64,000 bases of DNA from contig CAVXMC010000008.1 in the NCBI GenBank assembly GCA_963762795.1, positions 138,072-202,071 of the forward strand, in the 5' to 3' direction. Under the pieces are notes generated by a model. That model saw only the letters and a list, made by a program, of their open reading frames with translations. It was not told the DNA's origin and did not search any database. This stretch comes from an uncultured Actinomycetota bacterium. Its GTDB lineage: Bacteria; Actinomycetota; Actinomycetes; Mycobacteriales; SCTD01. Shown here one piece after another: positions 12,882 to 36,128 of the stretch (the first letter of the stretch is position 1; every line of letters begins with the position of its first letter). The position numbers were made by a program, and so were the translations under genes.

Positions 12882-13162
12882 GTCGCGTACACCGCCCGCA
12901 GCGACATCGTCAGCACCAGCATCAGCGCGCCGACGGTGAACAGGACCGACGCGTCGAAGGTGCGGCCGCGGTTGGACAGCAGGCCGGCCTGGGCGTCGGT
13001 GAGCCCCGACCGCACCACGCCGGCCGCCATGAGCGTCCCGGCCATCGTCGTGCAGCCGACGATCGGGTGGCGGGCGACGGTCGCGACGAGGCCGGCGGCG
13101 ACACCGGCCAGCACGAGCAGGAACGGCAGGTGCACCAGCCGGTGGCCGAGCGAGCGCTTCAC
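12878..13162 (-). CDS. small two-TM membrane protein (DUF3017-like)
   Basis: Intact 94-aa ORF with two hydrophobic helices separated by [20 protein letters not shown]. Its stop overlaps the selO start (GTGA). Confidence 0.55.
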
Positions 13163-13179
13163 GGCGGCAGTATGCCCCG

Positions 13180-14179
13180 ATGGACACCACTGCCCCCGCC
13201 GTCGTCGCCCTGCCCGACGTCCCGCTCGACGACCCCGGCGCCTTCGCCGAGCAGGACGTCGAGATCGGCCCGCCCGGGCCGCACGACCTGCTGGTCGACG
13301 TGCGCGCCGTGTCGGTGAACCCGGTCGACGTGAAGGTCCGGGCGCGGCTGCGCACGCCGCGGGTGCTCGGCTTCGACGCCGCCGGCGTGGTCGTCGCGGT
13401 CGGGGCGCAGGTCACCGCGTACGCCCCCGGCGACGAGGTCTACTACGCCGGCTCGATCACCCGCCCCGGCAGCAACGCGGCCCGGCAGCTGGTGGACGAG
13501 CGGATCGTCGGCCGCAAGCCGCGCACCCTGGACTTCGCCGAGGCGGCAGCGCTCCCGCTGACGTCGATCACGGCCTGGGAGACGCTGCACGACCACCTGC
13601 GCGTCTCGCGGGACAGCACCGGCACGCTGCTCGTCGTCGGCGGCGCGGGCGGTGTCGGCTCCGTGCTCGATCCAGCTGGCCCGGGCCCTGACCGGCCTCA
13701 CGGTCGTGGCGACCGCCTCCCGGCCGGAGTCGGCCGCGTGGGTCACCGGCCTCGGCGCCCACCACGCCGTCGACCACCGCGACCTGGTGGCCGGTGTCCG
13801 CGCGGTCGCGCCGGACGGGGTGGACCACGTCTTCACCGCCTTCTCCAGCAGCGCGAACGTGGAGGCGTTCGCGGAGCTGCTGCGGGTGCGCGGGGCGGTC
13901 GTCGCCATCGACGACCCGCAGGGCCTGGACCTGCTGCCGCTCAAGGCCCGCAGCCAGTCCTGGCACTGGGAGTCGATGTTCGCCCGGCCCCTCCAGGAGC
14001 CGGAGAGCACCGTCCAGCGGGAGCTGCTCGACGAGGTCGCCCGCCTGGTCGACGAGGGCGTCGTGCGCACCACGATGACGACCCGGCTGGAGGGGCTCAC
14101 CCCTGCCACCCTGCGCGAGGCGCACCAGCAGCTGGCGTCCTCCACCACCGTCGGCAAGGTGGTGCTGACCAGGGCCTAG
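13180..14179 (+). CDS. zinc-type alcohol dehydrogenase / quinone oxidoreductase (MDR) family protein; frame broken near 13668
   Basis: The N-terminus ([22 protein letters not shown]) lies in ORF 13180..14508. The C-terminus (IQLARALTG...GKVVLTRA) lies in ORF 13652..14179. Confidence 0.8.
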
Positions 14180-23424: not shown

Positions 23425-24126
23425 TCAGCCGGTTGGCCGTACGCCCCGGTGCAGCGCCACGATGCCGCCGGTGAGGTCGCGCCAGGCGACCTGCCCCCAG
23501 CCGGCCTGCTGCACCTGCGTGGCGAGGGCCGCCTGGGCGGGCCAGGCGCGCACCGACTCGGCCAGGTAGACGTAGGCCTCCGGGTCGCTGCTGACCTTGC
23601 GGGCCACCGCCGGGAGCGCCTTCATGAGGTACTCGAGGTAGACGACGCGGAACGGCCGCCAGGTCGGCGCGCTGAACTCGCAGACCACCAGGCGGCCGCC
23701 GGGCCGGGTCACGCGGAGCAGCTCGCGGAGCGCCTGGCCGGTGTCGGCGGTGTTGCGCAGCCCGAAGGAGATCGTCACCGCGTCGAACGCCCCGTCGCGG
23801 AACGGCAGCCGCAGCGCGTCGCCGGCGACCAGCTCGACGCCGCGGTGGCCGGCCCGCTTGCCGACCTTCAGCATGCCGAGCGAGAAGTCGCAGCCGACCA
23901 CCTGCGCGCCGCTGCGGGCGAGCGCGGCGCTGCTCGTGGCCGTCCCGGCGGCCAGGTCGAGGACCCGCTCCCCCGGCTGCAGCGCGAGGGCGCCCGAGAC
24001 GGCGGTGCGCCAGCCCCGGTCCTGGCCGAGGGACAGCACCGTGTTGGTGAGGTCGTAGCGGGGCGCGACCTCGTCGAACATCGCGGCGACCTCGGCGGGG
24101 TCCTTGTCGAGGGATGCGCGGCTCAC
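23425..24126 (-). CDS. menG: demethylmenaquinone methyltransferase (UbiE/MenG)
   Basis: Intact 233-aa ORF with [13 protein letters not shown], the SAM motif [12 protein letters not shown] and ISFGLRN. Confidence 0.85.
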
Positions 24127-24165
24127 GGCCCCATCGTGCCAGGCCGGGCCGCTCGACGCCGGACC

Positions 24166-24201
24166 TTGACACGTGACATGTCTGATGTCACGTTGTCGCC
24201 A
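24166..24201 (+). promoter_or_regulatory. putative leaderless promoter TTGACA-N17-CACGTT with embedded inverted repeat ACGTGACAT-N5-ATGTCACGT
   Basis: TTGACA lies at 24166-24171 and CACGTT (nAnnnT) at 24189-24194. The ATG at 24201 sits exactly 7 nt after the -10 hexamer. The 9-bp inverted-repeat arms lie at 24171-24179 and 24185-24193. The site is in the menG/membrane-protein divergent spacer. Confidence 0.35.
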
Positions 24202-26046
24202 TGACCTTCGCTGCTGCTGTCCTCGCCTCCAGCACGCCGCCCGCCGGGGGCGCGGCCCTCGACGAGGTCATCGGCGCCACCGCCGGTGTCGGCCTCGTCT
24301 CGCTGGTGCTGTTCGGCATCGCGGTCGCCCACCGGACCCGCCGCATCACGTGGCTCGGCCGCTTCGCCACCGCGGTGGGCGCCCGCACCGGCCGGCCCGG
24401 CTGGGTGGCGCTGCCCAGCTTCATGAACACCCTCGCGCTCCTCGTGGCGCTGTTCGGCATGCTCTGGGACATCTCGCTGCACATCGGCCAGGGCCGCGAC
24501 GAGGGGCCGCTCGCCAACCCCGCCCACTACTTCATCCTGGTCGGGCTGTTCCTCGTCTTCTCCGCCGGGATGCTCGCCGTCGTCCTGCCGCTGGACGAGG
24601 AGCCCGGCCCGGCCGCGGTGCGCATCACCCGCACCTGGAAGGCCCCGGTCGGCGGCATCCTGGTCGCCGGCGCCGGCTTCTACGCGCTGCTCGGCTTCCC
24701 GCTCGACGACGTGTGGCACCGGCTGTTCGGCCAGGACGTCACGCTCTGGGGCCCGACCCACCTCATGCTCATCACCGGCGCCGGCCTGTCCCTGATCGGG
24801 ATGCTCGTGCTCGAGCAGGAGGGCCGCGCCGCCGCCCCGCTCAGCCACGCAGCAGACCCCGGTCGTCGCCTGGCTGCTCCGCGTCTTCGCGCTCGGCGGC
24901 ATGCTCATCGGCCTGTCGGTCTTCCAGGCGGAGTTCGACTTCGGCGTCCCGCAGTTCCGCCTCGTCCTGCAGCCGCTGATGATCGCCGCGGCGGCCGGCC
25001 TCGCGCTGGTCGCCGCCCGGCTCATCGCCGGCCCGGGTGGCGCCGTCGCCTGCGCGCTGTTCTTCGTGGCCATCCGCGGCGTCATGAGCCTGCTGGTCGG
25101 CCCGCTCCTCGGCGAGCCGACCCCCTCCTTCCCGCTGTACGTCGGGTCGGGCGTCCTCGTCGAGCTGCTCGCCCTGTCCGGGCTGCTGCGCCGGCCGATG
25201 GCCTTCGGCGCCGTCGCCGGCTTCCTCATCGGCACGCTCGGCACCGGCATCGAGGCGCTCTGGGCGTCCTTCGCCATGCCGCTGCCGTGGACCCGTGACA
25301 TCGCGGTCGAGGGCGTGCTGATGGCCACCGCGGTCGCCGTCGCCGCGGGCGTCTGCGGTGCGCTGCTCGCCGAGGGCCTCGCCGGCCGGCTCCCCCGCCC
25401 GTCGGTGGCCCGCCCCGCCCTGCTGGCCAGCGTCCTGGTGCTCGCCGCGGCCGTGGCCAACGGCCTGTACGCGACCGTGCCCGACGGTGCCCGCGCCACC
25501 GTCGCCCTGACCCCGGCCGGCCCCGGCATGGCCACGGCAGAGGTGACGCTCGACCCGGCGTCGCTGGCCGCGGACGACCCGGCCTGGGTGCAGATCACCG
25601 CCTGGCAGGGCGGCGGGCTGGTGCTCGACCGCCTGGAGCGGACCGGTCCCGGCACCTACCGCTCCACCGAGCCGGTCCCGGTCGACGGCGACTGGAAGAC
25701 GATGGTGCGCGTCCACGACGGCCGGGTGCTGGCCGCCTCGCCGATCTTCCTGCCGGCCGACGAGGCCATCGACGCCGAGGAGGTCCCGGCGGCCGCGTCG
25801 TCCACCCGCGACGTCGTCCCGGAGATCACGCTGCTGCAGCGCGAGCGCCAGCTCGACGTCCCCGGCTGGCTGTGGGGCGCGGCCAACCTCGTCGTGCTCG
25901 TCTGCTCGATCGCCCTCATCGCCGCCCTCGGCTGGGGCGTCGGCCGCCTGGCCCGTCGTACCGGTGAGGGCACCGGCAGCATCCCGCCGCCGGCCGCCCC
26001 GCGCGCCGCCGGTCGTACGACCGCCCTGCGGCCCGGCGTGGCGTGA
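24201..26046 (+). CDS. large polytopic membrane protein with a C-terminal extracytoplasmic domain, unknown function; frame broken near 24850
   Basis: ORF 24201..25298 contains multiple TM helices and the motif [14 protein letters not shown]. It continues in ORF 24901..26046 with further TM helices, a soluble ~170-aa segment and a final TM. Confidence 0.6.
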
Positions 26047-26051
26047 CCGCG

Positions 26052-26192
26052 ATGGTCTACGCGCACCACCCCCTGGTGATCGCGCTGCCGTTCTTCGTGC
26101 CGGCCCTGCTCGCCGTGCTCGCCATCGGCGGGGTCATGTGGCGGGACCGGCACACCCCCGAGGACGAGCCCGAGGCGCCGGAGGGCGAGTGA
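26052..26192 (+). CDS. 46-aa single-TM micro-protein (hypothetical)
   Basis: The ORF atg..tga reads MVYAHHPLVIALPFFVPALLAVLAIGGVMWRDRHTPEDEPEAPEGE. It is below the ORF-track length cutoff. It starts 6 nt after the upstream stop, and its TGA overlaps the merR-family GTG. Confidence 0.35.
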   Translation: MVYAHHPLVIALPFFVPALLAVLAIGGVMWRDRHTPEDEPEAPEGE

Positions 26193-26944
26193 GCGACGAG
26201 GAGCTGACCGTCGACCAGCTGGCGGCGCGGGTCGGGATGACCGTGCGCAACGTGCGCGCGTACGCCGCCCGCGGCCTGCTCCCGGCGCCCCGCCTCGTCG
26301 GCCGGACCGGCTACTACGGGCCCGAGCACGTCGCCCGGCTCCTGCTCGTGCGCGAGATGCTCGGCCAGGGCTACACGCTGGCGGCGGTCGAGCGGTCCCT
26401 CGAGGGCAGCCCGACCACGGCGAGCTCCAGCGCCCTCGCGCTGCACCGCGCCCTGATGGCGCCGTGGCTGCCGGACGCGCCGGTCGAGTCCGACGTCGCC
26501 GAGCTGTCCGCCCGGGTCGGCGTGGAGAGCGCGCCGGGGGTGCTGCAGGAGCTGGCCGCCATGGGCGTGCTGGAGCTGCTCGACGACGAACGCATCCGGG
26601 TGCTCGACCCCACGCTGCTCGAGGCCGGCGTGCAGGTCGTCCGGCTCGGCGTCGACCCCGAGGTGCTCGTCGAGGCGCAGCGCAAGGTCATCGAGCTGGT
26701 CGAGCAGGCGGCCGACGTCTACGTCGACATGTTCCGGCGCACGGTGTGGCAGGACTTCGTCGCGGCCGGAGCTCCCGCGGACGGCTGGCCGCGCATCCAG
26801 GAGGTCGTCGAGCGGCTGCAGCCGGTCGCTGCGCAGGCGCTGCTGGCGAGCTTCCGCAGCGCGATGGCGGCGGCCGTGGCGCAGGAGGTCGACAGCCAGC
26901 TCGAGCACGAGGGATCAACTCGGCCCCCGCCGGCGCTGTACTAG
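26189..26944 (+). CDS. MerR-family transcriptional regulator
   Basis: GTG 26189 lies in the frame of ORF 25964..26944. The N-terminal wHTH is LTVDQLAARVGMTVRNVRAYAARGLLP. Confidence 0.8.
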   Translation: MSDEELTVDQLAARVGMTVRNVRAYAARGLLPAPRLVGRTGYYGPEHVARLLLVREMLGQGYTLAAVERSLEGSPTTASSSALALHRALMAPWLPDAPVESDVAELSARVGVESAPGVLQELAAMGVLELLDDERIRVLDPTLLEAGVQVVRLGVDPEVLVEAQRKVIELVEQAADVYVDMFRRTVWQDFVAAGAPADGWPRIQEVVERLQPVAAQALLASFRSAMAAAVAQEVDSQLEHEGSTRPPPALY

Positions 26945-26986
26945 ACGTCACGGGTGAGCGGATCGCCCACGGGAAGGGGAAGCGTC

Positions 26987-28403
26987 ATGACCAGGCACCA
27001 GGGCGCTCGGCACCGCGTCGTCATCATCGGCTCCGGCTTCGGCGGGCTCTTCGCCGCCAAGAAGCTCAAGCGGGCCGACGTCGACATCACCCTCATCGCC
27101 CGTACGGGCCACCACCTCTTCCAGCCGCTGCTCTACCAGGTGGCGACCGGGATCCTCTCGCCCGGCGAGGTCGCCCCGGCCACCCGCGAGATCCTGCGGC
27201 GCCAGGACAACGTCCGCGTCGTCCTCGGCGACGTGACCGAGGTCGACGTGGCGAACCGGCGGGTCACCTCGCTGGCGATCGACAGCACGCACGTGACCGA
27301 GTACGACACCCTCATCGTCGCGGCCGGCTCCGGCCAGTCCTACTTCGGCAACGACCAGTTCTCGGAGTTCGCGCCCGGCCTGAAGTCCATCGACGACGCC
27401 CTCGAGCTGCGCGGCCGCATCTTCGGCGCCTTCGAGATGGCCGAGCTCGAGGACGACCCGGCCGCTCTGGACGCCTGGATGACCTTCGTCGTCGTCGGCG
27501 CCGGGCCCACCGGCGTCGAGATGGCCGGCCAGATCGCCGAGCTCGCCCGGCGCACGCTCAAGCGCGACTTCCGCAACATCGACCCCAAGACGACGCGCAT
27601 CATCCTGCTGGACGCCGCCGACGCCGTGCTCGGCCAGTTCGGCGAGAAGCTGTCGCAGCGCGCCGAGGCCAAGCTCAACGACATCGGCGTCGAGGTGCAG
27701 CTCGGGCGCCAAGGTGGTCGGCGTCGACGCCACCGGCATCGAGGTCGAGGACGCCAGCGGCGCGCACCGCCGGATCCCGTCGCGGACCAAGGTGTGGGCC
27801 GCGGGCGTCAGCGCCGCGCCGCTCGGCGCGCAGATCGCGTCGCAGGCGGGCGCCGAGGTCGACCGCGCCGGCCGCGTCCTGGTCGAGAAGGACCTCACCG
27901 TGCCGGGCCACCCCGAGATCTTCGTGATCGGCGACATGATGTCGCTCGACCGCCTGCCCGGGGTCGCCCAGGTCGCCATGCAGGGCGCCGAGCACGCCGC
28001 CGGCCAGATCAAGAAGCGGCTCGCCGGCAAGCCGGCCGGTCAGCCGTTCCACTACTTCGACAAGGGCAACATGGCGACGGTGTCCCGGTTCAACGCCGTG
28101 GCCGCCATCGGCCCGCTGCGGCTGTCCGGGTTCATCGCCTGGCTGATGTGGCTGGTGATCCACATCGTGTACCTGATCGGCTTCAAGAACCGCGTCACGA
28201 CCCTGCTCCACTGGGCGGTCAGCTTCGTCGGCCGCGGCCGGTCCGAGCGGACCGTCACGCTGCAGCAGGTGGTCGCGCGCAACGTCCTCAAGCGCGAGGG
28301 GACGTACGCCCTCGGCATGCCGCGCGGGACGGACGTCGGCTCGGGGACCCCGTCGTCCGACGCGCCGACCTCCATCGGCGACGGCGAGAAGCTGCCGGCC
28401 TGA
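26987..28403 (+). CDS. ndh: type II NADH dehydrogenase (NDH-2); frame broken near 27703
   Basis: ATG 26987 follows the purine-rich GGGAAGGGGAAG. Two Rossmann motifs (VVIIGSGFGGL, FVVVGAGPTGVEMAG) lie in ORF 26954..28426. The C-terminus (IFVIGDM, membrane-anchor helices) lies in ORF 27714..28403. Confidence 0.85.
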
Positions 28404-28454
28404 CCGAGCCTGCCTGCGCGGGGTAGGAGCCCTCCACCTGACCCTGGAGACCCC

Positions 28455-29704
28455 GTGCGCCTGCCGCTGCCTGGCCCGACCGACCTCGTCCACGCGGCGC
28501 GCGACCTGGCCGCCGCCGCGACCGCCCTGGGTCGCCTCACCACCGGTGCGGTCCAGGTCCTCCCCCGCCTCGAGGGCCTGCTCGACCGCGCCGTCGGCCT
28601 GATCGGCGGCGCCGAGAGCGCCCTCGGCGGGGCCCTCCCGCTGCTCGACCGCATCGAGCTCGCCGTCGGCCGGATCGAGTCGATCGCCGGCCAGGTCGAG
28701 ACGCTCCTCGCCGATCGCGTCGACCCGGTCCTCGCCGACATCGACGGCGTCCTCGTCGACGCCCGCAGCCAGCTCGCCGCCGTCGGGTCGGTGGTCGGGG
28801 ACGCGCAGGTCCAGATCGCCGCGGTCGGCGGGGTGGTGGGCGAGGCGCGGGTGCAGATCGATGCCGTCGGCGGGGTGGTGTCGCGGGCGGACACGCAGAT
28901 CGGCGCAGTCGGGGACGTCGTGGCCCGGGCGGACACGCAGATCGGCGCGGTCGGGGACGTCGTCTCCCGGGCGGACACGCAGATCGGCGCCGTCGGGAAC
29001 GTGGTCTCGCCGCGCCGACTCCCAGATCGGCGCCGTCGGGGACGTCGTCTCCCGGGCGGACTCCCAGATCGGCGCCGTCGGGGACGTCGTCTCCCGCGCC
29101 GACTCCCAGATCGGCGCCGTCGGGGACGTCGTCGCCCGGGCCGACCCCAGATCGGCGCCGTCGGGGACGTCGTCTCCCGCGCCGACTACGCAGATCGGTG
29201 CCGTCGGGGACGTCGTCGCCCGCGCCGACACCCAGATCGGCGCCGTCGGGGACGTCGTCTCCCGCGCCGACCAGCAGATCGGCGCCGTCGGCGAGGTGGT
29301 CGCCGGCGCGCGTACCCAGATCGACAGCGTCGGACAGGTCGTCGACCGCGCGGACGGGGCGATCGAGGAGGCCCTGCGCCTGCTGGCCCGCGCGGGCGGG
29401 CTCGTCGACACCGGCGACTGCCCTCCTGTCCAAGGTGCTGCCCCTGGTCGCGCACCTCCTGCCGGCTGCGCAGCGCCTCGCCGAGACGCTGGAGCCCAAG
29501 GAGATCGACGCTGCGATCGCCCTCATCGACCGCCTGCCCCAGCTGCTCGACGCCGTCGACAACGACGTCCTGCCGCTGGCCAAGCAGCTGGAGCAGGTCG
29601 CCCCGGACCTGCACCAGATGCTCGAGCTCCTCGACGACGTGCACCGCGTGGTCAGCGGCCTGCCCGGCGTCGGCCGCCTGCGACGACGTGGCGCAGACGA
29701 GTAG
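28455..29704 (+). CDS. 14-residue tandem-repeat protein of unknown family; four frame breaks (~29009, 29146, 29187, 29419)
   Basis: GTG 28455 follows GGAGA. The product is periodic every 14 aa from RIESIAGQVETLLA through nine near-identical QIGAVGDVVSRADT units to VHRVVSGLPGVGRL. The pieces lie in ORFs 28455..30041, 28861..29751 and 29198..29704. Confidence 0.55.
28770..29358 (+). repeat. 42-bp tandem repeat array, 14 units (three units are 43, 41 and 43 bp)
   Basis: Unit starts are 28770, 28812, 28854, 28896, 28938, 28980, 29023, 29065, 29107, 29148, 29191, 29233, 29275 and 29317. The central consensus is cagatcggcgccgtcggggacgtcgtctcccgcgccgacacc. Confidence 0.9.
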
Positions 29705-29747
29705 AACTGCTCAGGCGCTTCACCTCGCCGCGGCCGAGTCTGGGGTC

Positions 29748-30041
29748 ATGACTTCGACACCTGCCCTGTCCCGTACGACCGCCGCCTTCTACCTGCAGGC
29801 CGGCCTGTCGTTCGCCGTCTCGCTCGTCGCCGTCGGGATCGGCATCGCCTACCTCCCCGTCGACGCCTGGGTCCGCGCGTTCCTCGCCATCGCGACCCTG
29901 TACGTCGTCACCTCGACCTTCACCCTCGCCAAGTGCGTCCGCGACCAGCAGGAGGCCGGCAGCGTCCTCGGCCGCGTCGACGAGGCCCGCCTCGAGAAGC
30001 TGCTCGCCGACCACGACCCCTTCCGGACGCCCAGCCTCTAG
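29748..30041 (+). CDS. YiaA/YiaB-type two-helix inner-membrane protein
   Basis: ATG 29748 lies in the frame of ORF 28455..30041 and gives 97 aa with two long hydrophobic helices (AFYLQAGLSFAVSLVAVGIGIAYL, VRAFLAIATLYVVTSTFTLAK) and a charged tail. Confidence 0.65.
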   Translation: MTSTPALSRTTAAFYLQAGLSFAVSLVAVGIGIAYLPVDAWVRAFLAIATLYVVTSTFTLAKCVRDQQEAGSVLGRVDEARLEKLLADHDPFRTPSL

Positions 30042-30062
30042 TCGCGCCGCTCGGCCGCTCCG

Positions 30063-32167
30063 TCAGTCGGACCGGTGCTCGACCTGGGTCATCCAGGCTT
30101 CGGCGTCGGGGTCGTGTGCGTCGAGCAGTGCTGTGACGGTGGCGGCGAGGGCTGCGGGTGTGGCCAGTCGGGTGCCGGCGGGGATGCGGGGTGGTGGTGC
30201 CCATCGCGGGTGGGTGCGGTAGGTCCGGGTCGCCGGGCTGGTCCAGGTGGTGGTGCCGTCGGGCTGCTGAACGACGGTCCAGCCCTTGTGCTTGGCGTGG
30301 TGGCAGCGCTGGCTGCGGGCCTGTGAGGTTGGCGGCGTTGGTCGGGCCGTCGGGCCAGGGCTGGTGGTGGTCGAGCTCGCAGCGGCTGGCCGGGACCGAG
30401 CAGCCGATGCCGTCGCAGCCCCGGTCGCGCAGCCGGACCAGCCGGGCGAGCGGTGCGGACGGGTCGTGCTGCGGCTCGGGCTGGTCCTGCGGTGCGGGCA
30501 CGGCGGTGAGAGCCAGGGTGGTGAGCAGCGCCCGCAGCTCGTCAGGGGTCAGCGCGGCGGAGTCGTGGGCGACGGCAGTCCCGGATGAGTCGGCGACGAC
30601 GGCGCTCGTGGTCGGGTCGGCGGGGCTGGTGGCGGGTGCGGTGCGTTCGGTGCCGCGTCGTGCGCTTCCGGCCGGTCTTGCGCTTCGGCTTCGGTGTGGC
30701 GGGTGTCGGTCGGTGGAGCGGTCGGGTGGGGGTGGCCAGGGGCCGGCCGGTGGTGGCGTCGACGAACAGCGCGCGGATCTCGGCGGTCGGCAGGAGCTGG
30801 TGGACCTGCGCGGCGGGCAGCAGCGCCCCACCGGGTTCGAGCTGTCCGGGGGCGTCGCTGACACCGAGGGCGGTCGCGAGCGGGACGTGCACGATCGACC
30901 TGCGGTGGCCGCACGACCAGGGTCGTGCGAGGACCCGGCAGCGCAGCCGCAGCGCCGCCGCCGCTGCCGCAGGTCAGGCATGGCGGTGGTGCTCCTGTGG
31001 CGCGGCCGCCCGGTCCGGTGCTGGCCCTGGTGCGTCGGCGGTCGCGGCGGCGCCGTGGGTCGGGCCGGCGGTGGGGTCCAGGCCGCTGGCGGTGATGCCG
31101 GCGGTGGTGCCGGAGGTGGTGTCGCGGTGGCGTCGGCGGTCGCGTCGGTGGTGTCGCCGGTCGGGTCGGTGACCTCGCCGGTCGCGTCGGTGACTCGCCG
31201 GTCGGGTCGGTGACCTCGCGGTGGTGGCGGCCGTGGCCGGGGTGGGGTCGGTGACCTCGCCGGTGGTCGGGTCGCACGCCGGCGCACAGGTGGGCTCGTC
31301 AGGAGACCGGGGCCGCGTCGGAGGTCGAGGGCTGCACGGGCTCGCCAGCGGCTGGGAGGGTGCGCTGTCACCGTTGCCCGGCCCGGAGGGCGGCTGGTCC
31401 CAGGGCGGGTCTTCGACCAGGACCGGTGCCGGGACTGTCGTGGCGCCGGTTGCGGGTGGCAGGTCGGGGCCGGTGGGGGCGATGCGCCGGCCGGTCAGGA
31501 GCTCGGTGACCAGGTCGGCGCGGAGCTGCTCGATGGTGCGGGGGTCACCGGCGGTGTGCAGGGCGTGGGCCTGCTCGGTCAGGCTGAGCTGGACCGCGGC
31601 GACGTGCTCGGCGGGCAGCAGCGCGACGAGCAGGCTCATGCCGTCCTCGGTGGCGTGCCGGGTCCAGACCTTGCGGTCGGCCCGGGCGCGGGCGGCGCGG
31701 CGGGCGGCTTCGGCGGCGTCCAGCGTCAGGACGAGCCGGCGGACCCGGTCCCGCAGCCGGCCCGGCGGCAGCTCGGCCGCGACCAGCAGGACCCGCTTCT
31801 CGACCTGGGAGCAGGTCAGCGCGTCCAGGTGCCGGGTCTCGCTGATCAGCACCCGGGCCTGCGGAACACCCAGGGTGCCGGCCTGGAGCCGCCCGAACGT
31901 CTCGGGCAGGAACGTGACGAGGTGCTGGGCGTCGGCGAGCCGGGCGCCGGCGCTCTGCTGCCCGATGACGCAGGTCCCGGCGACCTCCAGCAGCACCGAG
32001 TCGAACGGGGCGCTGCCCCGCCACCCGTCATGGGTCGCGCCGTCGGTCAGCTCGACCAGGACCCGGGCCTCCGCGGCGAACGTCCGGGCCGCGGTCGCCT
32101 GCAGCGCGGCGAGCTGGTCCAGCCCGGCCGTGTAGGCCGGATCAGAGAACCACGACGACTCGCTCAC
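30063..32167 (-). CDS. DUF222 / HNH endonuclease (REP13E12-like) protein; at least five frame breaks (e.g. ~31219, 31195, ~30900, ~30700, ~30320)
   Basis: The N-terminal DUF222-like region is intact in ORF 30974..32167. The middle segment IVHVPLATALGVSDAPGQLEPGG lies in ORF 30542..30892. The HNH core RLRDRGCDGIGCSVPASRCELDHHQPWPDGPTNAANL lies in ORF 29920..31371, then RCHHAKHKGW...EAWMTQVEHRSD continues in another frame to TGA 30063. Confidence 0.7.
31159..31275 (-). repeat. 21-bp imperfect tandem repeat encoding the heptapeptide TGEVTDP inside the DUF222/HNH gene
   Basis: The unit ggtcgggtcggtgacctcgcc occurs at 31159, 31180 (20 nt) and 31200 (20 nt), with a partial copy at about 31244-31275. 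Two copies lack one c. Confidence 0.7.
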
Positions 32168-32276
32168 AGGACGAACCTAACCGGCACCACCGACAGAAAA
32201 GCCCAGGTCAGACGGGCTGTGGACAGTCAGAGTCGCAGTGGAAACACCGCGGAACTGTCGGCGCCGAATGCCCGCC

Positions 32277-32405
32277 CGGGGCCCGGGGCCCGGGGCCCGG
32301 GGCGCGGGACGCGGGACGCGGAGCGCGGGGCGCGGGGTGCGCCGGGCGCGGGCCGCAACCGGGGTCCGACAGCGCGGTGCAACAGCGCGGCAGCGACAGC
32401 GCGGC
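32277..32405 (+). repeat. G-tract microsatellite cluster (GGGGCCC x3.5, GCGGGAC x2, GCGGGG[CT] x2, then ACAGCGCGG x3), a G-quadruplex candidate
   Basis: Eleven runs of G3-4 lie between 32278 and 32364, including GGGGCCCGGGGCCCGGGGCCCGGGG. Three ACAGCGCGG copies at ~13-nt spacing lie at 32370-32404. The cluster is in the non-coding spacer between the acylase stop and the HNH gene start. Confidence 0.7.
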
Positions 32406-32469
32406 GCGACGGCGGCGCGCTGCGGCAGCGAGGTGGGGCCTCGAAGTGCGACGGCAGGGGCCCGAACCC

Positions 32470-35139
32470 CTACCGCGCCACCGACCGCCCCACCTCGACC
32501 GCCTGCTGGTAGGTCCCCCGGTTCTGCCACGGCTGCGGCGGCGTCTCGACGGCGCCGGCGGCGGTCGGGACGATCTGGTCGCAGGTCCCGGGCGCGTCGG
32601 GGCACAGCACCGGCTTCCTCCACGACGCGAGATCAGCAGACCCCTGGGACGCCGCGACCGAGGCCACCGCCGACCGGAGCGAGGACAGCAGCAGCGCCCG
32701 GCAGCGCGCCAGCGCGCCCCCGCCGCAGTAGGTCCGCGACTGCCCACCGCGGACCTTCTGCCCGAGCACGCGGCGCAGGTCGGCCCTGACCTGGCTCTGC
32801 CACCCGCCGAAGAAGCCCTGCGCCGTGGGCGCGGCGTCCAGGGGCAGCAGCTCGTCGCGCGCGACCTGCGTCAGCAGCGGAGCCCCGAGCACCGGGGTGA
32901 AGACCGCCGAGACGACCCGCGGCCACCACGCGTCGAACGCCAGCACGGCGGCGGAGTCGTCGTACGACGCCCCGCCAGCAGCACTGCGCCGGTGCGCGCC
33001 CGACCGCTGCCAGGCACGGAGCGCGTCGACGACCGGCTTGTCCGCTGCGGTCGGCGTCCCGAGGACGGCGAGCAGCTGGGGCAGCACCTCGTACCCGCGC
33101 AGGTCGCGCGTGCCGGCGCCGGCGTTGACCTTGGCCACGGCCGCCAGGTCCAAAGGTCCCTTGGCGATGCGCCCGCGCAGCGGCAGCTCCAGCAGCGAGC
33201 TGCGCTGGGCCGCGCCGTACGTCCAGACGCCAGGAGGAGCGCGCCAGCCGGGTGCGGCCTTGTTGTTCCACGACACCAGGTAGCCCTGCGCCGGGTCGAT
33301 CGCGCGCGGGTTCCGCGATGCCGGCAGCGGTGTGTAGGAGTAGGACGACGGCGAGAAGCCCTGCCAGTCGTACGCGCCGGTGCCCCAGGTCGGGACGTCC
33401 AGGTCGACGCCGCGGGTGCGCATCGGGAAGCGCCCCGACTGCAGCCAGGAGATCGAGCGGGCGTCGACGTAGAACCAGTTCTCGTTGCCGGTGAACAGCC
33501 GCATGGCCGCCTCGAACGACGCCGGCGAGGTGACCCGGTTCTCGGCCAGCCGCTGGAACGCGACCAGGCTCTGGATGGCCTGCTTGTAGACGCCGCTGCT
33601 GAAGGTGAGCGCGACGGGACGGCCGCCGACGGTGCCGAAGCCCTGCACCGGTCCGTGGACCGACCGCAGCGTCGTGAGGACGACCTCGCCCGGCGGACGC
33701 GGCGCGGTCGGCGAGGCCGGCGTCGGCACCCGCTGCTCGCGCGAGGTGAAGGCGACGCACGCCCCCCGGTAGCGGTAGTGCGTGGACGAGCGGGTGGCCG
33801 AGGACCCGTCCGGGTTGCAGAGCTCCTCGGCGAAGGTGTCGATGTTGTCGCCGAACGCCGACGTCCCGGTCCAGGAGAAGTCCAGCCCGTGGCCGATGAG
33901 CGGGTACGGCGACGCGCCCGGGAACGTCATCCCCGACACGTGGACGCCCGGCGCGTGCAGCTCCTGCTCGACCAGGATCTCCGGCGAGTAGTAGCCGACC
34001 TGCGGCCCGGTGACGGCGAGCGGCCGGCCGCTGGCGGAGTGCTTGCCCGCCACCAGGACCGCGTTCGACGCGTGCTTCGACGACGGCAGCCCGGACCGGG
34101 CCAGGTCGGCAGCGAACGCCGGCGCCGGCGAGCCCGAGGACGACGTGACCGCGTTGCGCAGGGCGTACGACCCGGGCTCCACCACCGCCCGCGCCCGGGG
34201 GTCGACCGGTCCGGGGTCGTCGGAGGCGAACCGCTCGCGCGTCGTGAACGTCGTCTCCGGGTCCTCGGCGCGCCGCAGGTCGGCGTAGACGGCGGCACCG
34301 GCGGCCGCGCCGAGCTTCTTCTGCAGCGCGGCGAGGATCATCGACTGCTGCGTCTCGCCGTTGCCGAAGGCGGTGAACTGCCCGATCAGCAGGTAGCCGG
34401 TCGCGGCCGAGTCGGCCAGGGTCCAGTCCTCCGGCGAGGCGCCGAGTGCCGGGTACTCCCCGGGCAGCAGCCGCGGGTCGGTCCGCGCCGCGGCGATGTA
34501 GGCGTTGATCCCGGCGACGTAGTCCGTCAGGTCCGCGAGCGCTCGCGTGCCCTCCTCGCCGCGCGTCCGCGGCAGGTCCTGCACCTCGGCGGTGAGCTCC
34601 TCCGGCGACAGGTCGAACGTCCCGAGCGCCGCGCTGTCACCGGCCGCCGCGTCCGGCCCGAGCAGCCCGGACAGCCGCCCCTCGGCGGTGCGCCGCAGCA
34701 CGTCCATGAAGAACAGCCGGTCCTGCGCGGCGGCGTAGCCCGCGCCGAACATCACGTCGGGGCGGGTGTCGCCGTAGATGCGCGGCACGGCGTAGGTCGC
34801 GTCGCGCAGGATGCGTACGCCGTCGCGCGGAGCGGTCAGGGCCCCGCCCGCGGACTCCGGCCGGAACGAGGAGTCCTTGTAGAGCCTCGTCGGGTCGTCG
34901 GACGCGATGCCGGCGTTGTAGAGCCCCGCCTGGCTGGTGAAGGACGCCGGCACCGCACCGGTCGCCAGGTGGGCGCCGACCTCGACCGCGTCGGTCGTCT
35001 CCCCCTGCCCGTACGCCAGGACGGAGCGGAAGCCGCCACCGTCCTGGACGTACGGCGCGGGGTCAGCAGCGACGGCGGGCCCGGCGAGCAGCCCGGCGAG
35101 GCCAGCCGCGGCGACCAGGACAGCGAGGCCCGCGCGCAT
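32470..35139 (-). CDS. secreted penicillin-acylase-family Ntn hydrolase (penicillin/AHL acylase-like)
   Basis: Intact 889 codons inside ORF 32470..38655. It starts at ATG 35139 with a signal peptide (MRAGLAVLVAAAGLAGLLAGPAVAA). A candidate nucleophile context is KHASNAVLVAG. Other family-like blocks are GPQVGYYSPEIL and NENWFYVD. Confidence 0.85.
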   Translation of the reverse strand: MRAGLAVLVAAAGLAGLLAGPAVAADPAPYVQDGGGFRSVLAYGQGETTDAVEVGAHLATGAVPASFTSQAGLYNAGIASDDPTRLYKDSSFRPESAGGALTAPRDGVRILRDATYAVPRIYGDTRPDVMFGAGYAAAQDRLFFMDVLRRTAEGRLSGLLGPDAAAGDSAALGTFDLSPEELTAEVQDLPRTRGEEGTRALADLTDYVAGINAYIAAARTDPRLLPGEYPALGASPEDWTLADSAATGYLLIGQFTAFGNGETQQSMILAALQKKLGAAAGAAVYADLRRAEDPETTFTTRERFASDDPGPVDPRARAVVEPGSYALRNAVTSSSGSPAPAFAADLARSGLPSSKHASNAVLVAGKHSASGRPLAVTGPQVGYYSPEILVEQELHAPGVHVSGMTFPGASPYPLIGHGLDFSWTGTSAFGDNIDTFAEELCNPDGSSATRSSTHYRYRGACVAFTSREQRVPTPASPTAPRPPGEVVLTTLRSVHGPVQGFGTVGGRPVALTFSSGVYKQAIQSLVAFQRLAENRVTSPASFEAAMRLFTGNENWFYVDARSISWLQSGRFPMRTRGVDLDVPTWGTGAYDWQGFSPSSYSYTPLPASRNPRAIDPAQGYLVSWNNKAAPGWRAPPGVWTYGAAQRSSLLELPLRGRIAKGPLDLAAVAKVNAGAGTRDLRGYEVLPQLLAVLGTPTAADKPVVDALRAWQRSGAHRRSAAGGASYDDSAAVLAFDAWWPRVVSAVFTPVLGAPLLTQVARDELLPLDAAPTAQGFFGGWQSQVRADLRRVLGQKVRGGQSRTYCGGGALARCRALLLSSLRSAVASVAASQGSADLASWRKPVLCPDAPGTCDQIVPTAAGAVETPPQPWQNRGTYQQAVEVGRSVAR

Positions 35140-36128
35140 CAGAGCTTGACGAGCATCTTGCCGGTGTTGTCGCCGTGCAGCATGCCGATGAAGGCGTCCG
35201 CGGCGTGCTCGATGCCCTCCAGGACCGTCTCGCGGACCTGGATCCGGCCGTCGGCGATGGCCGCCCCGACCTCGCTCCGGAACTGCTGCGTGAGGTCGTT
35301 GTGGTCGCCGACCAGCAGGCCGCGCAGGACGAGCCGCTTGCCGATGATGAGCGACATGTTGCGAGGCGCCGGAGTCGGCTCGGTGGCGTTGTAGACCGAG
35401 ATCATCCCGCAGATCGCGGCCCGGCCGTGCACCTTGAGGGAGTTGATCGCGGCCTCGAGGTGCTCGCCACCGACGTTGTCGAAGTAGCAGTCGATGCCGT
35501 CCGGCGCGGCGGCGGCGAGCAGGTCCGACACCCGACCGTCGTGGTAGTCGAAGGCGGCGTCGAAGCCGATCTCCTTCAGCCAGGCCACCTTCTCCGGCGA
35601 GCCCGCGCTGCCGATCGCGGTGCCCCCGCGGAGCTTGACGAGCTGGCCGACGATGCTGCCGACCGCGCCGGCCGCGCCGGAGACGAAGACGGTCTCGCCG
35701 TCCTTGTACTCCGCGCTGCGCAGCAGCCCGGCGTAGGCCGTCAGGCCCGGCATGCCGAGGACGCCGAGGTAGTGCGACGGGGTGTCGATCCGGTCCACGC
35801 GGGAGAAGCGCTTGGCCGGCCCGACGGCGTGCTCGCGCCAGCCGGTGTTGGACAGCACCAGGTCGCCGACCGCGTGCGTGTCGACCGTGGACTCCACGAC
35901 CTCGCCGACCGCGCCGCCCTCGAGCGCCTTGCCGATCTGGAACGGCGGCACGTAGCTCTTGGTGTCGTTCATGCGTCCGCGCATGTACGGGTCGACCGAC
36001 ATCCACGTGTTGCGGACCAGCACCTCGCCGTCGGCGGGGGACGGGACGTCGACCTCCGCCAGCTCGAAGTCGGTGGGCTTGGGCTCCCCCACCGGGCGGG
36101 CGGCCAGACGGATCTCGCGACTCTTCAC
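35139..36128 (-). CDS. NADP-dependent oxidoreductase (MDR family, YncB/CurA/alkenal reductase-like)
   Basis: Intact 329 codons in the frame of ORF 35139..38699, starting at GTG 36128. Motifs LVRNTWMSVDPYMRGRM and VFVSGAAGAVGSIVGQ are present. Its TGA shares one base with the acylase ATG. Confidence 0.85.
   Translation of the reverse strand: MKSREIRLAARPVGEPKPTDFELAEVDVPSPADGEVLVRNTWMSVDPYMRGRMNDTKSYVPPFQIGKALEGGAVGEVVESTVDTHAVGDLVLSNTGWREHAVGPAKRFSRVDRIDTPSHYLGVLGMPGLTAYAGLLRSAEYKDGETVFVSGAAGAVGSIVGQLVKLRGGTAIGSAGSPEKVAWLKEIGFDAAFDYHDGRVSDLLAAAAPDGIDCYFDNVGGEHLEAAINSLKVHGRAAICGMISVYNATEPTPAPRNMSLIIGKRLVLRGLLVGDHNDLTQQFRSEVGAAIADGRIQVRETVLEGIEHAADAFIGMLHGDNTGKMLVKL

What the first reader, a model, noticed from the sequence alone, without database searches (positions are those of the whole stretch)
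28455..30041. 42-bp x14 tandem array encoding a protein that is 14-residue periodic from end to end, next to a YiaA/B-type membrane protein
Fourteen head-to-tail 42-bp units span 28770-29358. The nine central units (28896-29274) are nearly identical at the DNA level and encode QIGAVGDVVSRADT, while the flanking units decay progressively. The same 14-residue pattern, with aliphatic residues at fixed positions and usually two Gly per unit in the core, can be traced through essentially the whole ~415-aa product, from RIESIAGQVETLLA to VHRVVSGLPGVGRL. I cannot assign it to a named family. Fourteen residues equal two heptads, which would suit a long coiled coil or rod, but the two glycines per unit would also fit a beta-solenoid. 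Near-identical central units imply recent expansion by slippage or unequal recombination, so copy number is likely strain-variable. Three of the four frame breaks in this gene lie inside units of 43, 41 and 43 bp. These are either assembly errors in a hard-to-polish repeat or on/off switching of the ORF. The gene has a good RBS (GGAGA) and sits between ndh and a two-helix YiaA/B-like membrane protein, which hints at a membrane-associated role.
Basis: seen in the sequence. Interest (0 to 1): 0.7.

Follow-up and report, generated by a model that had tools for sequence, protein, structure and literature searches.

The report
Variable-length coiled-coil repeat protein gene
A real 42-bp tandem array sits in a gene for a long helical rod protein from an unnamed actinomycete family whose members differ in how many 14-residue units they carry; its frame breaks are most likely assembly errors and its function is still unknown.

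Summary
The array is real. Fourteen to fifteen head-to-tail 42-bp units lie at 28731-29361, and the nine core units are 84-95% identical. After four single-base corrections the gene (28455-29704, + strand) encodes a 415-aa acidic protein with no membrane segment.

The protein is best read as an alpha-helical coiled coil, not a beta-solenoid. All a/d heptad positions in the array are hydrophobic, and AlphaFold2 predicts helix throughout.

It matches no Pfam, NCBIfam or PDB family above cutoff. It does belong to an unnamed actinomycete family (about 460 clusters at 50% identity) with three features:
- an N-terminal MRLPxPGP motif;
- a central rod of 14-residue units, from about 0 to 17 units per protein;
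- a conserved 95-aa C-terminal domain.

This gene has the longest and one of the most uniform arrays I saw.

The frame breaks are best explained as assembly errors. The same kind of single-base insertion breaks ndh and other conserved genes in the window, and SelO is also split across frames. Orthologous arrays are also broken in other long-read MAG contigs, but not in short-read or isolate assemblies. A 42-bp unit cannot switch the reading frame.

The YiaAB neighbour is conserved only in the closest clade. The ndh neighbour results from a 4-kb segment that the nearest relative lacks.

The parts
28446..28450 (+). Shine-Dalgarno-like GGAGA, 4 nt upstream of the GTG start
   Evidence: Read directly from the sequence.
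28455..29704 (+). Gene for the 415-aa repeat protein. It starts at GTG and stops at TAG 29702-29704. It reads through only after four single-base corrections.
   Evidence: Three-frame translation and corrected translation. The + strand is supported by GC3 phase and by homologues.
28455..28730 (+). N-terminal region, residues 1-92. It carries the family motif MRLPLPGP, followed by heptad-periodic helix. A 21-bp (7-aa) repeat lies at 28575-28614.
   Evidence: The motif is aligned across the family. The 3.5-residue periodicity has p < 0.0005. TRF found the 21-bp repeat.
28731..29361 (+). Tandem array of 15 units of 42 bp (14 aa). Unit lengths are 42 bp except for 43, 41 and 43.
28899..29277 (+). 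Nine near-identical core units encoding IGAVGDVV(S/A)RAD(T/S)Q
   Evidence: Pairwise identity is 84-95%.
29004..29012 (+). Frame break 1: one extra base in unit 28983-29025 (TCTCGCCGCGCC where other units have TCTCCCGCGCC)
   Evidence: Unit alignment. The site varies between units.
29140..29150 (+). Frame break 2: one missing base in unit 29110-29150 (GACCCCAG where other units have GAC[A/T]CCCAG)
29184..29190 (+). Frame break 3: one extra base in unit 29151-29193 (GACTACGCAG where other units have GACACGCAG or GACTCCCAG)
   Evidence: The sequence looks like a mix of the two unit variants.
29413..29422 (+). Frame break 4: one extra base (GGCGACTGCCCTC), outside the array
   Evidence: The corrected reading ...DTGDALLSKV aligns with the orthologues.
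29420..29704 (+). Conserved C-terminal family domain, about 95 aa: LLPxxQRLAxxLxPxEIDAAIALIDRLPxLLxxVDxDVLPLxxxLxxVAPDLHxML...GLPGVGRLRRRG, followed by an acidic tail
   Evidence: Alignments A1 and A2. A profile search found 460 clusters at E<=1e-3. There is no Pfam match.
29705..29747 (+). 43-nt spacer before yiaAB. No terminator-like site was found. Three orthologous loci have the same 43-45 nt spacing.
29748..30041 (+). 97-aa YiaAB-type two-helix membrane protein
   Evidence: PF05360, E=1.1e-19, 70.8 bits against a cutoff of 26.6. It is 69-72% identical to the downstream gene in L081, L084 and L085.
28425..32469 (.). 4.05-kb segment absent from the closest relative (Frankiales MAG RYN_170, locus L001). 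It holds the repeat gene, yiaAB, a DUF222 gene and a G+C-rich simple-repeat tract.
   Evidence: blastn: L001 93-5105 matches window 23443-28424, and L001 5143-11084 matches window 32470-38403.
30977..32167 (-). DUF222-domain gene inside the extra segment. This is the N-terminal part only; the rest appears to lie in other frames.
   Evidence: PF02720, E=6.9e-18.

Best explanation
**What it is.** One gene (28455-29704) encodes a soluble, acidic, all-helical coiled-coil rod. It belongs to an unnamed actinomycete family with three features:
- a conserved N-terminal MRLPxPGP peptide;
- a central rod built from 14-residue (two-heptad) units;
- a conserved C-terminal helical domain of about 95 aa, ending in GLPG-x3-[LF]RRRG plus an acidic tail.

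**How the array arose.** In this genome the rod was lengthened recently by in-frame duplication of a 42-bp unit, through unequal recombination or slippage. Each unit adds two heptads. That is about 2 nm of helix, and the a/d hydrophobic seam stays in register. Unit number therefore sets rod length without disturbing the two conserved ends.

**The frame breaks.** The four frame breaks are consensus errors of a long-read assembly. They are not biology.

**Function (inferred, not shown).** The protein is a length-adjustable spacer or tether. In this clade it probably works together with the co-oriented YiaAB two-helix membrane protein 43 nt downstream.
For: **Structure**
- Heptad a/d positions are 100% hydrophobic in residues 9-60 and 106-301. 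They are 92% hydrophobic in 302-345, in the same register as the array.
- There is no membrane segment (maximum KD19 of 1.42). The pI is 4.46.
- Period-3.5 power has p < 0.0005 in both flanks and in the array.
- AlphaFold2 of the corrected protein gives helices 8-172 and 176-344, with pLDDT up to 88 in the array.
- AlphaFold2 of the short family member P0014 with a 44-sequence alignment gives pLDDT 88.8 and helices 25-105 and 108-161.
- The family profile hits only coiled coils and helical bundles in the PDB.

**Family**
- Homologues share both end regions.
- There are 460 clusters at E<=1e-3 and 294 at E<=1e-10.
- The best internal lag is 14 residues in 39 of the 45 proteins scoring >=0.45 lag identity.
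- The window protein has the longest 14-periodic stretch and is nearly twice the median length, 415 aa against 224 aa.

**Expansion**
- Core units are 84-95% identical and the edges are decayed.
- Orthologues carry about 4, 5 and 8 units, with different unit sequences.

**Frame breaks as errors**
- ndh and SelO are also split across frames.
- Isolated 1-nt insertions relative to a relative with 84% DNA identity occur at 24851, 27707 and 36879.
- All four family genes that carry an array on long-read-style contigs are broken: the window, L084, L085 and L098. The long-read attribution rests on MFD/'contig_N' naming and was not checked; for the window it is only assumed by analogy.
- Array-free genes in the same kind of assembly (L092, L093, L095) are intact. 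So are array-bearing genes in short-read or isolate assemblies (L081, L087, L094, L096).

**YiaAB link**
- YiaAB lies immediately downstream with a 43-45 nt spacer in L081, L084 and L085.
Against: - No experiment or characterised homologue supports any function.
- The YiaAB adjacency is limited to one clade. More distant members sit in unrelated contexts.
- The unit is rich in Gly, Val, Ile and Thr, which on their own disfavour helix.
- The AlphaFold2 model of the full protein has only moderate confidence (mean pLDDT 64, pTM 0.24). The oligomeric state is unknown.
- Frame breaks are about 10 times denser in this gene (3.2 per kb) than in the flanking conserved genes (about 0.27 per kb). A real pseudogene is therefore not excluded.
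- I did not see the reads. The long-read origin of the window is inferred by analogy with P0013/L084.
Confidence: 0.6

Rival explanations
1. Beta-solenoid: each 14-residue unit forms one coil of a beta-helix, with the two glycines at the turns.
For: - Each core unit has two Gly and five beta-branched residues.
- The period-2 harmonic in the array is as strong as the period-3.5 harmonic (305 against 311).
- Both are harmonics of 14, so that test cannot separate the two models inside the array.
Against: - AlphaFold2 gives helix only in both models.
- The a/d spacing of 3-4-3-4 is 100% hydrophobic and continues in register into the non-repeat flank.
- Units in homologues are rich in Ala, Glu, Arg and Asp and often lack the glycines, for example AKADAAIAGVAETR and AREITSGANEVVGS.
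- Both flanks show a 3.5-residue periodicity and no period-2 signal.
- PDB profile hits are coiled coils.
Confidence: 0.05
2. The frame breaks are real. The gene is either a decaying pseudogene in a recently acquired segment, or a contingency locus switched on and off within the repeat.
For: - There are four breaks in 1.25 kb, against about 0.27 per kb in 11 kb of flanking conserved sequence.
- The gene lies in a 4-kb segment that the nearest relative lacks, next to a DUF222 gene that also looks broken.
Against: - A 42-bp unit is a multiple of 3, so gain or loss of a unit cannot change the frame.
- The indels are single bases at sites that are not homopolymers and that vary between units. This is what mis-placed reads in a tandem array produce.
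- The same kind of isolated insertion breaks ndh, and SelO is also split across frames; both are conserved housekeeping genes.
- Orthologous arrays in other long-read MAG contigs are broken too. No short-read or isolate assembly shows this.
- There are no in-frame stops, and the GC3 and heptad patterns are intact after correction.
Confidence: 0.1
3. The protein is not a coiled-coil rod. It is a surface-binding amphipathic-helix protein of the apolipoprotein, perilipin, LEA or phasin type. Its repeats would lie flat on a membrane or lipid body, which would fit neighbours involved in acyl-CoA metabolism.
For: - The closest orthologues lie beside acyl-CoA carboxylase genes.
- Other members lie near carboxyltransferase plus ketoacyl synthase, methylmalonyl-CoA mutase, acyl-CoA synthetase or enoyl-CoA hydratase.
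- The repeats are rich in small residues.
- Sub-threshold Pfam hits to DUF745 and DUF1664 are consistent with, but do not establish, this reading.
Against: - The periodicity is exactly 3.5 residues. It is not the 3.67 of 11-residue lipid-binding repeats, and power at period 11 is at chance.
- The protein is strongly acidic, with net charge about -24.
- Acyl-CoA genes are very common in actinomycete genomes, and no single neighbour is conserved across orders.
- All Pfam hits are below their cutoffs.
Confidence: 0.15
4. The gene is derived from a phage tail or fibre protein and arrived on a mobile segment.
For: - PHROG hits: phrog_788 'tail protein' at E=3.7e-9 for the window protein, and phrog_25538 at E=3.3e-19 for the orthologue P0001.
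- The gene lies in a 4-kb segment absent from the nearest relative.
Against: - In the family members examined the PHROG hits fall within the helical rod and repeat region, and different stretches of different proteins match the same profile positions. For the window protein the phrog_788 stretch (residues 263-402) runs on into the C-terminal domain. Only 13 of 44 family members hit phrog_788, and the short member P0014 has no PHROG hit.
- tblastn of the window protein against 50,697 phage genomes finds nothing. P0001 matches only a 'direct tandem repeat region' in two Salmonella phages (three records).
- The family is chromosomal and usually stands alone in unrelated contexts.
Confidence: 0.03

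Closest known systems
Unnamed actinomycete protein family. NCBI annotates its members as 'hypothetical protein'. JGI labels them loosely as 'MlaD', 'YoxC' or 'ElaB/YqjD/DUF883'. Cultured carriers are Actinomycetospora chiangmaiensis DSM 45062 (L094), Pseudonocardia nigra DSM 104088 (L096) and Micromonospora sp. DT53 (P0075).
   Same: - The N-terminal MRLPxPGP motif.
- A heptad-periodic rod of 14-residue units.
- The conserved 95-aa C-terminal domain with LIDRLP, DVLP, V.PD.H and GLPG...RRRG.
   Different: - The window protein has the longest array (about 15-17 units, where most members have 0-10) and one of the most uniform (89% matches; the L081 orthologue reaches 90% over 5 copies).
- Its unit sequence (QIGAVGDVVSRADT) was not found anywhere else.
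Bacterial coiled-coil rod proteins with unusual repeats, such as Streptomyces FilP and Scy and the intermediate-filament-like proteins (PMC2680258, PMC3296230)
   Same: - Actinomycete origin.
- Cytoplasmic, long, uninterrupted coiled-coil rod built from a repeating unit.
   Different: - No sequence similarity was detected.
- From my own recollection, not checked in the cited papers, FilP and Scy use longer repeat periods.
- This family has its own conserved terminal modules.
- No cytoskeletal role has been shown.
Methyl-accepting chemotaxis protein cytoplasmic domains and Mce/MlaD C-terminal helical domains
   Same: - These are the best natural PDB hits of the family profile (2ch7 and 3ja6 at E about 3e-6; 13hr at E=4e-7).
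- They are long coiled coils. From general knowledge, their length changes in whole heptads.
   Different: - The hits are compositional or coiled-coil in nature.
- The protein has no MCP signalling motif, no MlaD domain (PF02470) and no membrane segment.
DUF948 (PF06103, YoxC-like) and DUF745 (PF05335)
   Same: Both are short helical proteins of unknown function, and both give weak hits.
   Different: - DUF745 scores 24.2 bits against a cutoff of 33.3.
- DUF948 gives no hit for the window protein. Only 1 of 13 C-terminal domains hits it, at E=0.054.
- The protein is not a member of either family.
Surface coiled-coil proteins with variable-number repeats, such as streptococcal M proteins, and length-setting 'ruler' proteins (comparison from general knowledge)
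   Same: In-frame tandem repeats inside a coiled coil change rod length between lineages without breaking the heptad register.
   Different: - This protein has no signal peptide and no wall anchor.
- It is cytoplasmic by prediction.
- No ruler function has been shown.

Membership tests
Unnamed actinomycete family defined here (N-terminal motif, 14-residue rod, C-terminal domain) | Conserved C-terminal domain of about 95 aa | tested here: met
   - The domain is 62-67% identical to its closest orthologues.
- P0011, a 99%-identical fragment, scores E=1.5e-33 against the family profile.
Unnamed actinomycete family defined here | N-terminal M-R-[LIV]-P-x(1-3)-P-G-P-x-D/A motif | tested here: met
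   MRLPLPGPTDL aligns with MRLPSVPGPSDV, MKLPFVPGPSEV and similar sequences.
Unnamed actinomycete family defined here | Central helical region built from 14-residue units | tested here: met
   - Lag-14 identity is 0.95 in the best 42-residue window of the window protein.
- Fourteen is the best lag in 39 of the 45 proteins scoring >=0.45 lag identity.
Canonical left-handed coiled coil | Continuous heptad pattern with hydrophobic a and d positions | tested here: met
   a/d positions are 100% hydrophobic in residues 106-301, against 25% at other positions. Period 3.5 has p < 0.0005.
Canonical left-handed coiled coil | Oligomerisation into a supercoiled bundle | not testable with these tools
   Only monomer AlphaFold2 was available. 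It needs AlphaFold-Multimer, SEC-MALS or crystallography.
Beta-solenoid repeat proteins | Repeat unit predicted as beta strands and turns | tested here: not met
   DSSP on both AlphaFold2 models shows helix only.
YiaAB (PF05360), for the downstream gene 29748-30041 | Match to the two-helix YiaA/B domain above Pfam's gathering score | tested here: met
   70.8 bits against a cutoff of 26.6, over profile positions 1-53 of 53.
DUF745 (PF05335), DUF1664 (PF07889) and DUF948 (PF06103) | Score at or above the Pfam gathering cutoff | tested here: not met
   - DUF745 scores 24.2 against a cutoff of 33.3.
- DUF1664 scores 18.8 against a cutoff of 34.6.
- DUF948 is absent for the window protein.
MlaD/Mce (the label JGI gives several members) | An MlaD/Mce domain and a membrane anchor | tested here: not met
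   There is no MlaD-domain hit in Pfam or NCBIfam and no hydrophobic segment. Similarity to 13hr and 8fed is limited to their helical parts.
Phase-variable contingency locus | A repeat tract whose gain or loss of units shifts the reading frame (unit length not a multiple of 3, or a homopolymer) | tested here: not met
   The unit is 42 bp, which is 3 x 14. The breaks are single-base indels at sites that are not homopolymers.
Anti-phage defence (PADLOC) or phage proteins (PHROGs) | A specific match outside generic coiled coil | tested here: not met
   - The only PADLOC hit is to part of JetC (annotated 'MukB-like'; profile positions 802-1056 of 1361), which I take to be its coiled-coil arm, at E=2.5e-6.
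- PHROG hits in the family members examined fall within the helical rod and repeat region; for the window protein the phrog_788 match (263-402) also overlaps the C-terminal domain. The short member P0014 has no PHROG hit.
- tblastn against phage genomes finds nothing.

The most novel reading that the evidence does not exclude
This family could be a so far undescribed class of actinomycete 'adjustable-length' coiled-coil tethers. The number of 14-residue modules would set the distance between a conserved N-terminal docking peptide and a basic C-terminal domain. In the Frankiales-like clade the tether would work as a two-gene module with a YiaAB membrane anchor. That module can move between loci: here it lies in a 4-kb segment together with a DUF222 gene. 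If true, it would also give the YiaAB domain its first functional context.
Probability: 0.15. Interest if true: 0.55.

Novelty: new variant of a known kind. Interest (0 to 1): 0.35.

Why it matters
- **A new family to curate.** It marks a conserved actinomycete protein family (hundreds of sequence clusters) with no Pfam or NCBIfam model and no function. The family has clear end motifs and a modular rod whose length changes between lineages. This is a natural case for asking what rod length does.
- **Misleading labels.** Current database names for members are wrong or loose: 'ribulose bisphosphate carboxylase large chain', 'MlaD' and 'YoxC'.
- **A practical warning.** In-frame tandem arrays in high-G+C long-read MAGs collect single-base consensus errors. 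Gene callers then report only fragments, such as the 89-aa P0011, and families like this one stay hidden.
- **Limits.** No mechanism, phenotype or disease link is at stake, so the interest is moderate.

Tried and rejected
- **Family libraries.** Pfam, NCBIfam, PDB sequence search, PADLOC and PHROGs on the corrected protein gave only sub-threshold or generic coiled-coil hits.
- **C-terminal domain alone.** Pfam and a PDB profile search found nothing specific.
- **Fold search.** Foldseek of both AlphaFold2 models against the PDB gave no meaningful match. This is expected for single long helices.
- **Synteny with ndh.** I fetched 80 ndh loci, and none has the gene or yiaAB nearby. The first search for related loci with the whole protein found nothing, because repeat-derived patterns swamped it. 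The 13-sequence alignment was too diverse for pattern search.
- **Conserved partner across the family.** Contexts differ by order: acyl-CoA carboxylase and YiaAB, methylmalonyl-CoA mutase, a HerA-like helicase, or LytR. No universal operon partner exists.
- **Strain-level copy number.** An exact 27-mer of the unit has no hit in 185,579 species genomes or in the JGI metagenome contigs. Look-up of the source contig through P0011 failed.
- **Phage origin.** Rejected.
- **Literature.** Full-text searches on YiaAB, YiaA/YiaB and 14-residue coiled-coil repeats in actinobacteria returned nothing about this family.
- **Coding on the opposite strand.** The long minus-strand ORFs 27675-29411 and 28537-29583 are rejected by GC3 phase and by the homologues.
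Full report
**1. The observation**

The sequence at 28.7-29.4 kb holds a head-to-tail array of 42-bp units. Anchoring on ATCG..GTCG gives unit starts at 28773, 28815... 29320. The spacings are 42 x5, then 43, 42, 42, 41, 43, 42, 42, 42. TRF reports period 42, 10.4 copies, 89% matches and score 601 at 28853-29291, plus overlapping period-84 rows.

The nine core units (28899-29277) are 84-95% identical to each other. Identity falls to 52-79% in the three to four units on the 5' side and the two on the 3' side. This cannot arise by chance.

Three-frame translation shows a single reading that hops frame four times. I removed one base near 29008, added one near 29145, removed one near 29187 and removed one near 29419. 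This gives a 415-aa product with no internal stop. The gene is 28455-29704. The 528-aa ORF 28455-30041 in the mechanical ORF list is an artefact. The wrong frame has no stop and runs on, in frame, into the next gene.

**2.

The 14-residue period does not run from end to end. In residues 1-105 and 302-415, Fourier power at period 14 is at chance (p = 0.96 and 0.97). Lag-14 identity there is 0.15-0.16, against 0.81 in the array.

What does run through the whole protein is a 3.5-residue hydrophobic period, with p < 0.0005 in each part. A lenient scan places the 14-residue periodic stretch at about residues 90-325.

**3. Helix or beta**

With the register fixed on the array, heptad positions a and d are I, V, V, A. 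They are 100% hydrophobic across residues 106-301, against 25% at other positions. The same register continues at 92% through residues 302-345. Residues 9-60 also score 100%, in their own register.

The protein has no segment hydrophobic enough to span a membrane (best 19-residue Kyte-Doolittle mean 1.42). It has no Cys, Phe, Trp or Tyr. Its pI is 4.46 and its net charge is about -24.

AlphaFold2 on the corrected protein with a 14-sequence alignment gives helix only (8-172 and 176-344). Mean pLDDT is 64, rising to 84-88 in the core units. A short family member (P0014, 178 aa) with a 44-sequence alignment gives pLDDT 88.8, with helices 25-105 and 108-161. Its pTM is low, as expected for an extended rod.

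Units in homologues are classic helix formers and keep the 3-4-3-4 spacing. Examples are AKADAAIAGVAETR, ADEAIAAVGTTNRK, AREITSGANEVVGS and TVGRIDPVITRAEH.

Inside the array the period-2 harmonic is as strong as the period-3.5 harmonic. Both are harmonics of 14, so that test alone cannot decide. The flanks, the homologues and the models all point to a coiled coil. I put the beta-solenoid at about 5%.

**4. What family it is**

No library places it:
- Pfam's best hit is DUF745, at 24.2 bits against a cutoff of 33.3.
- NCBIfam gives nothing relevant.
- PDB sequence search gives nothing below E = 0.01.
- Foldseek gives nothing.

The protein is not an orphan, however. A protein search found relatives that share both ends of the protein and differ in the middle. 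A search with the C-terminal 115 residues found more. These include an 89-aa fragment, P0011, that is 99% identical. This is very likely what a gene caller made of this same broken gene.

An exhaustive profile search with the C-terminal domain (alignment A1) found 460 clusters at E<=1e-3, 294 at E<=1e-10 and 15 at E<=1e-30, among 1.84 billion representatives. The named sources are all actinomycetes:
- Frankiales, Blastococcus, Actinomycetales and Actinomycetes MAGs;
- Pseudonocardia sp. and Micromonospora sp. DT53;
- the isolates Actinomycetospora chiangmaiensis DSM 45062 and Pseudonocardia nigra DSM 104088.

NCBI calls the members 'hypothetical protein'. JGI's labels (MlaD, YoxC, ElaB/YqjD) and one NCBI label ('ribulose bisphosphate carboxylase large chain') have no domain support.

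The family features are:
- an N-terminal MRLPxPGPxD motif;
- a heptad-periodic rod;
- a C-terminal domain, L-x-P-x3-R-[LF]-x7-E-[VI]-x-A-x3-L-[IV]-D-x-L-P ... D-[VI]-L-P ... V-x-P-D-[LV]-H ... G-[LF]-P-G-x3-[LF]-R-R-R-G, followed by an acidic tail.

**5. The 14-residue unit is a family hallmark**

I scored 148 proteins of at least 150 aa: the family members fetched, the window protein and three translated from loci. The best internal lag is 14 residues in 39 of the 45 that score at least 0.45 lag identity. It is 28 in four and 21 in two. On a lenient criterion, 99 have at least 3 units, 63 have at least 5 and 21 have at least 8.

Median length is 224 aa. The window protein, at 415 aa, has the longest periodic stretch.

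At the DNA level the arrays compare as follows:

| Locus | Source | 42-bp copies | % matches | Reading frame |
|---|---|---|---|---|
| window | (this sequence) | 10.4 | 89 | broken |
| L081 | Frankiales MAG | 5.2 | 90 | intact |
| L084 | long-read MAG | about 4 | 80 | broken |
| L085 | long-read MAG | about 8 | 78 | broken |
| L098 | long-read MAG | 7.1 | 68 | broken |
| L094 | Actinomycetospora isolate | 9.1 | 69 | intact |

Unit sequences are uniform within a gene and differ between genes. This is the pattern expected from repeated local expansion and homogenisation by unequal recombination.

So copy number does vary between lineages. The window array is one of the two most uniform, which I read as one of the most recent. 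I could not test variation within a species. An exact 27-mer of the unit has no match in 185,579 species genomes or in the JGI metagenome contigs.

**6. The frame breaks**

Several lines point to assembly error.

- Unit slippage cannot change the frame, because 42 is 3 x 14.
- The breaks are single-base indels at sites that are not homopolymers. Within the array they sit exactly where units differ from one another. Examples are TCTC-CCGC, GAC[A/T]CCCAG read as GACCCCAG, and GACTACGCAG, which looks like a blend of the GACT... and GACA... variants. Mis-placed reads in a tandem array produce this during consensus calling.
- The window carries the same defect in conserved housekeeping genes. ndh is split between two frames, with Pyr_redox_2 positions 2-205 in one and NDH2_C in the other. 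SelO is split between at least two frames, with profile positions 16-214 and 230-314.
- Aligned to the closest relative (L001, 84% DNA identity), isolated one-base insertions appear at 24851, at 27707 (the ndh break) and at 36879.
- In the family loci I fetched, every array-bearing gene on a long-read-style MAG contig is frame-broken: the window, L084/L086, L085 and L098. I infer the long-read origin from the MFD isolate names and 'contig_N' naming, and for the window only by analogy; I did not check the sequencing platform. Array-free family genes in the same kind of assembly (L092, L093, L095) are intact. Array-bearing genes in short-read MAGs and isolates (L081, L087, L094, L096) are intact too.

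The break density is about ten times higher in this gene (3.2 per kb) than in the flanks (about 0.27 per kb). This fits the array being an error hot spot. It also leaves some room, about 10%, for a true pseudogene. I did not see the reads.

**7. Neighbours**

The downstream gene (29748-30041) is a single-domain YiaAB protein, PF05360, at 70.8 bits. A YiaAB gene 69-72% identical to it follows the family gene in L081, L084 and L085, after a 43-45 nt spacer. The spacer in the window is 43 nt and has no terminator-like site. The pair is very likely co-transcribed in this clade.

Outside the clade there is no YiaAB nearby. The family gene usually stands alone in contexts that are conserved only within orders:
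- convergent with methylmalonyl-CoA mutase in Pseudonocardiales;
- near a HerA-like helicase in another clade;
- near LytR-type genes in others.

The ndh neighbour has no functional meaning. None of 80 ndh loci from other genomes has the gene or yiaAB beside ndh. The closest relative is colinear with the window up to 28424 and again from 32470. The window therefore carries a 4.05-kb extra segment between the convergent ndh and the next gene. The segment holds the repeat gene, yiaAB, a DUF222-domain gene on the minus strand and a G+C-rich simple-repeat tract.

In the three closest orthologous loci the pair lies next to an acyl-CoA carboxylase gene instead. Relocation into the ndh intergenic region in this lineage is therefore the simpler reading. 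That step is an inference.

**8. Mechanism**

Shown:
- one gene and its family membership;
- the heptad pattern and the all-helix prediction;
- the absence of a membrane segment;
- the modular 14-residue rod whose unit number varies between lineages;
- the recent local amplification in this genome;
- the clade-limited pairing with YiaAB.

Inferred:
- The protein forms an oligomeric or hairpin coiled-coil rod.
- Each 42-bp unit adds two heptads. That is about 2 nm of helix at 0.15 nm per residue, and the hydrophobic seam stays in register. This explains why only 14-residue steps are tolerated.
- The conserved N-terminal peptide and the basic-then-acidic C-terminal domain are the working ends, and the rod acts as a spacer.
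- In this clade the partner is the YiaAB membrane protein.

I give the structural and evolutionary part about 0.8 and the spacer/tether function about 0.25.

The main functional rival is a surface-binding amphipathic-helix protein. It has weak support from acyl-CoA metabolism neighbours. It is disfavoured by the exact 3.5-residue period and the strong negative charge.

A phage origin suggested by PHROG hits was rejected. In the family members examined the hits fall within the helical rod and repeat region, although for the window protein the phrog_788 stretch (263-402) also overlaps the C-terminal domain. Only 13 of 44 members hit phrog_788, and phage genomes contain no match to the window protein.

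**9. Verdict**

The feature is real and accurately located. The structural reading as a rod is correct, and the beta-solenoid and switching ideas are not supported. The ndh hint is spurious, and the YiaAB hint is real but limited to one clade.

The protein is a new variant of a familiar kind, a coiled-coil protein with variable-number in-frame repeats. It belongs to a conserved actinomycete family that has no model or name. Interest is moderate to low, at 0.35.

Noticed in passing
window 28425-32469: This 4.05-kb segment is absent from the closest relative (Frankiales MAG RYN_170, L001), which is otherwise colinear on both sides. It carries the repeat gene, yiaAB and a DUF222 gene. The gene pair therefore seems to have moved here. 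In three related genomes it lies next to acyl-CoA carboxylase instead.
   Followed up: partly
window 24851, 27707, 36879; 11354-13415 (-): Isolated single-base insertions break conserved genes elsewhere in the window. ndh is broken at 27707, and two other coding regions at 24851 and 36879. SelO is split over at least two frames. This shows that the sequence carries pervasive consensus indels.
   Followed up: yes
window 30977-32167 (-), and 30060-30970: A DUF222-domain gene (PF02720, E=7e-18) lies here. Its expected C-terminal part is not in the same frame. It is probably broken too, or truncated. I did not test whether it is a mobile HNH-type element.
   Followed up: partly
window about 32280-32400: A G+C-rich tract of short tandem motifs (GGGGCCC and GCGGGAC/GCGGGGC repeats) lies at the right edge of the extra segment, just before the convergent downstream gene.
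   Followed up: no
window 57961-58111 (-): A c-di-AMP riboswitch (RF00379, 49.2 bits against a gathering score of 38, full-length match).
   Followed up: no
window 28575-28614: A 21-bp (7-residue) tandem repeat, 1.9 copies, lies in the N-terminal part of the same gene. L094 has an equivalent 21-bp repeat just upstream of its array.
   Followed up: partly
L081 3873-4781 (P0001): NCBI annotates the closest intact orthologue as 'ribulose bisphosphate carboxylase large chain'. Nothing in its sequence or Pfam hits supports this name. It is a misannotation that could spread.
   Followed up: partly
L084 3556-4348, L085 3377-4369, L098 4580-5223: The orthologous genes on other long-read-style MAG contigs are also frame-broken inside their 42-bp arrays. 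Gene callers report only C-terminal fragments (P0012 and P0013, 115-122 aa).
   Followed up: yes
window 25964-26944 (+) and 9826-10695 (-): A MerR-family regulator lies directly upstream of ndh, and this arrangement is conserved in L001. An EAL-domain protein gene lies at 9.8-10.7 kb.
   Followed up: no
P0030 (428 aa): One family member has a different internal repeat of about 80-90 residues (...LAPVRPVVEALLVDAELDPEAARRVA...LAYADRTLTTIQPIADE...) in about three copies. This looks like a duplication of part of the C-terminal domain rather than of the 14-residue unit.
   Followed up: no
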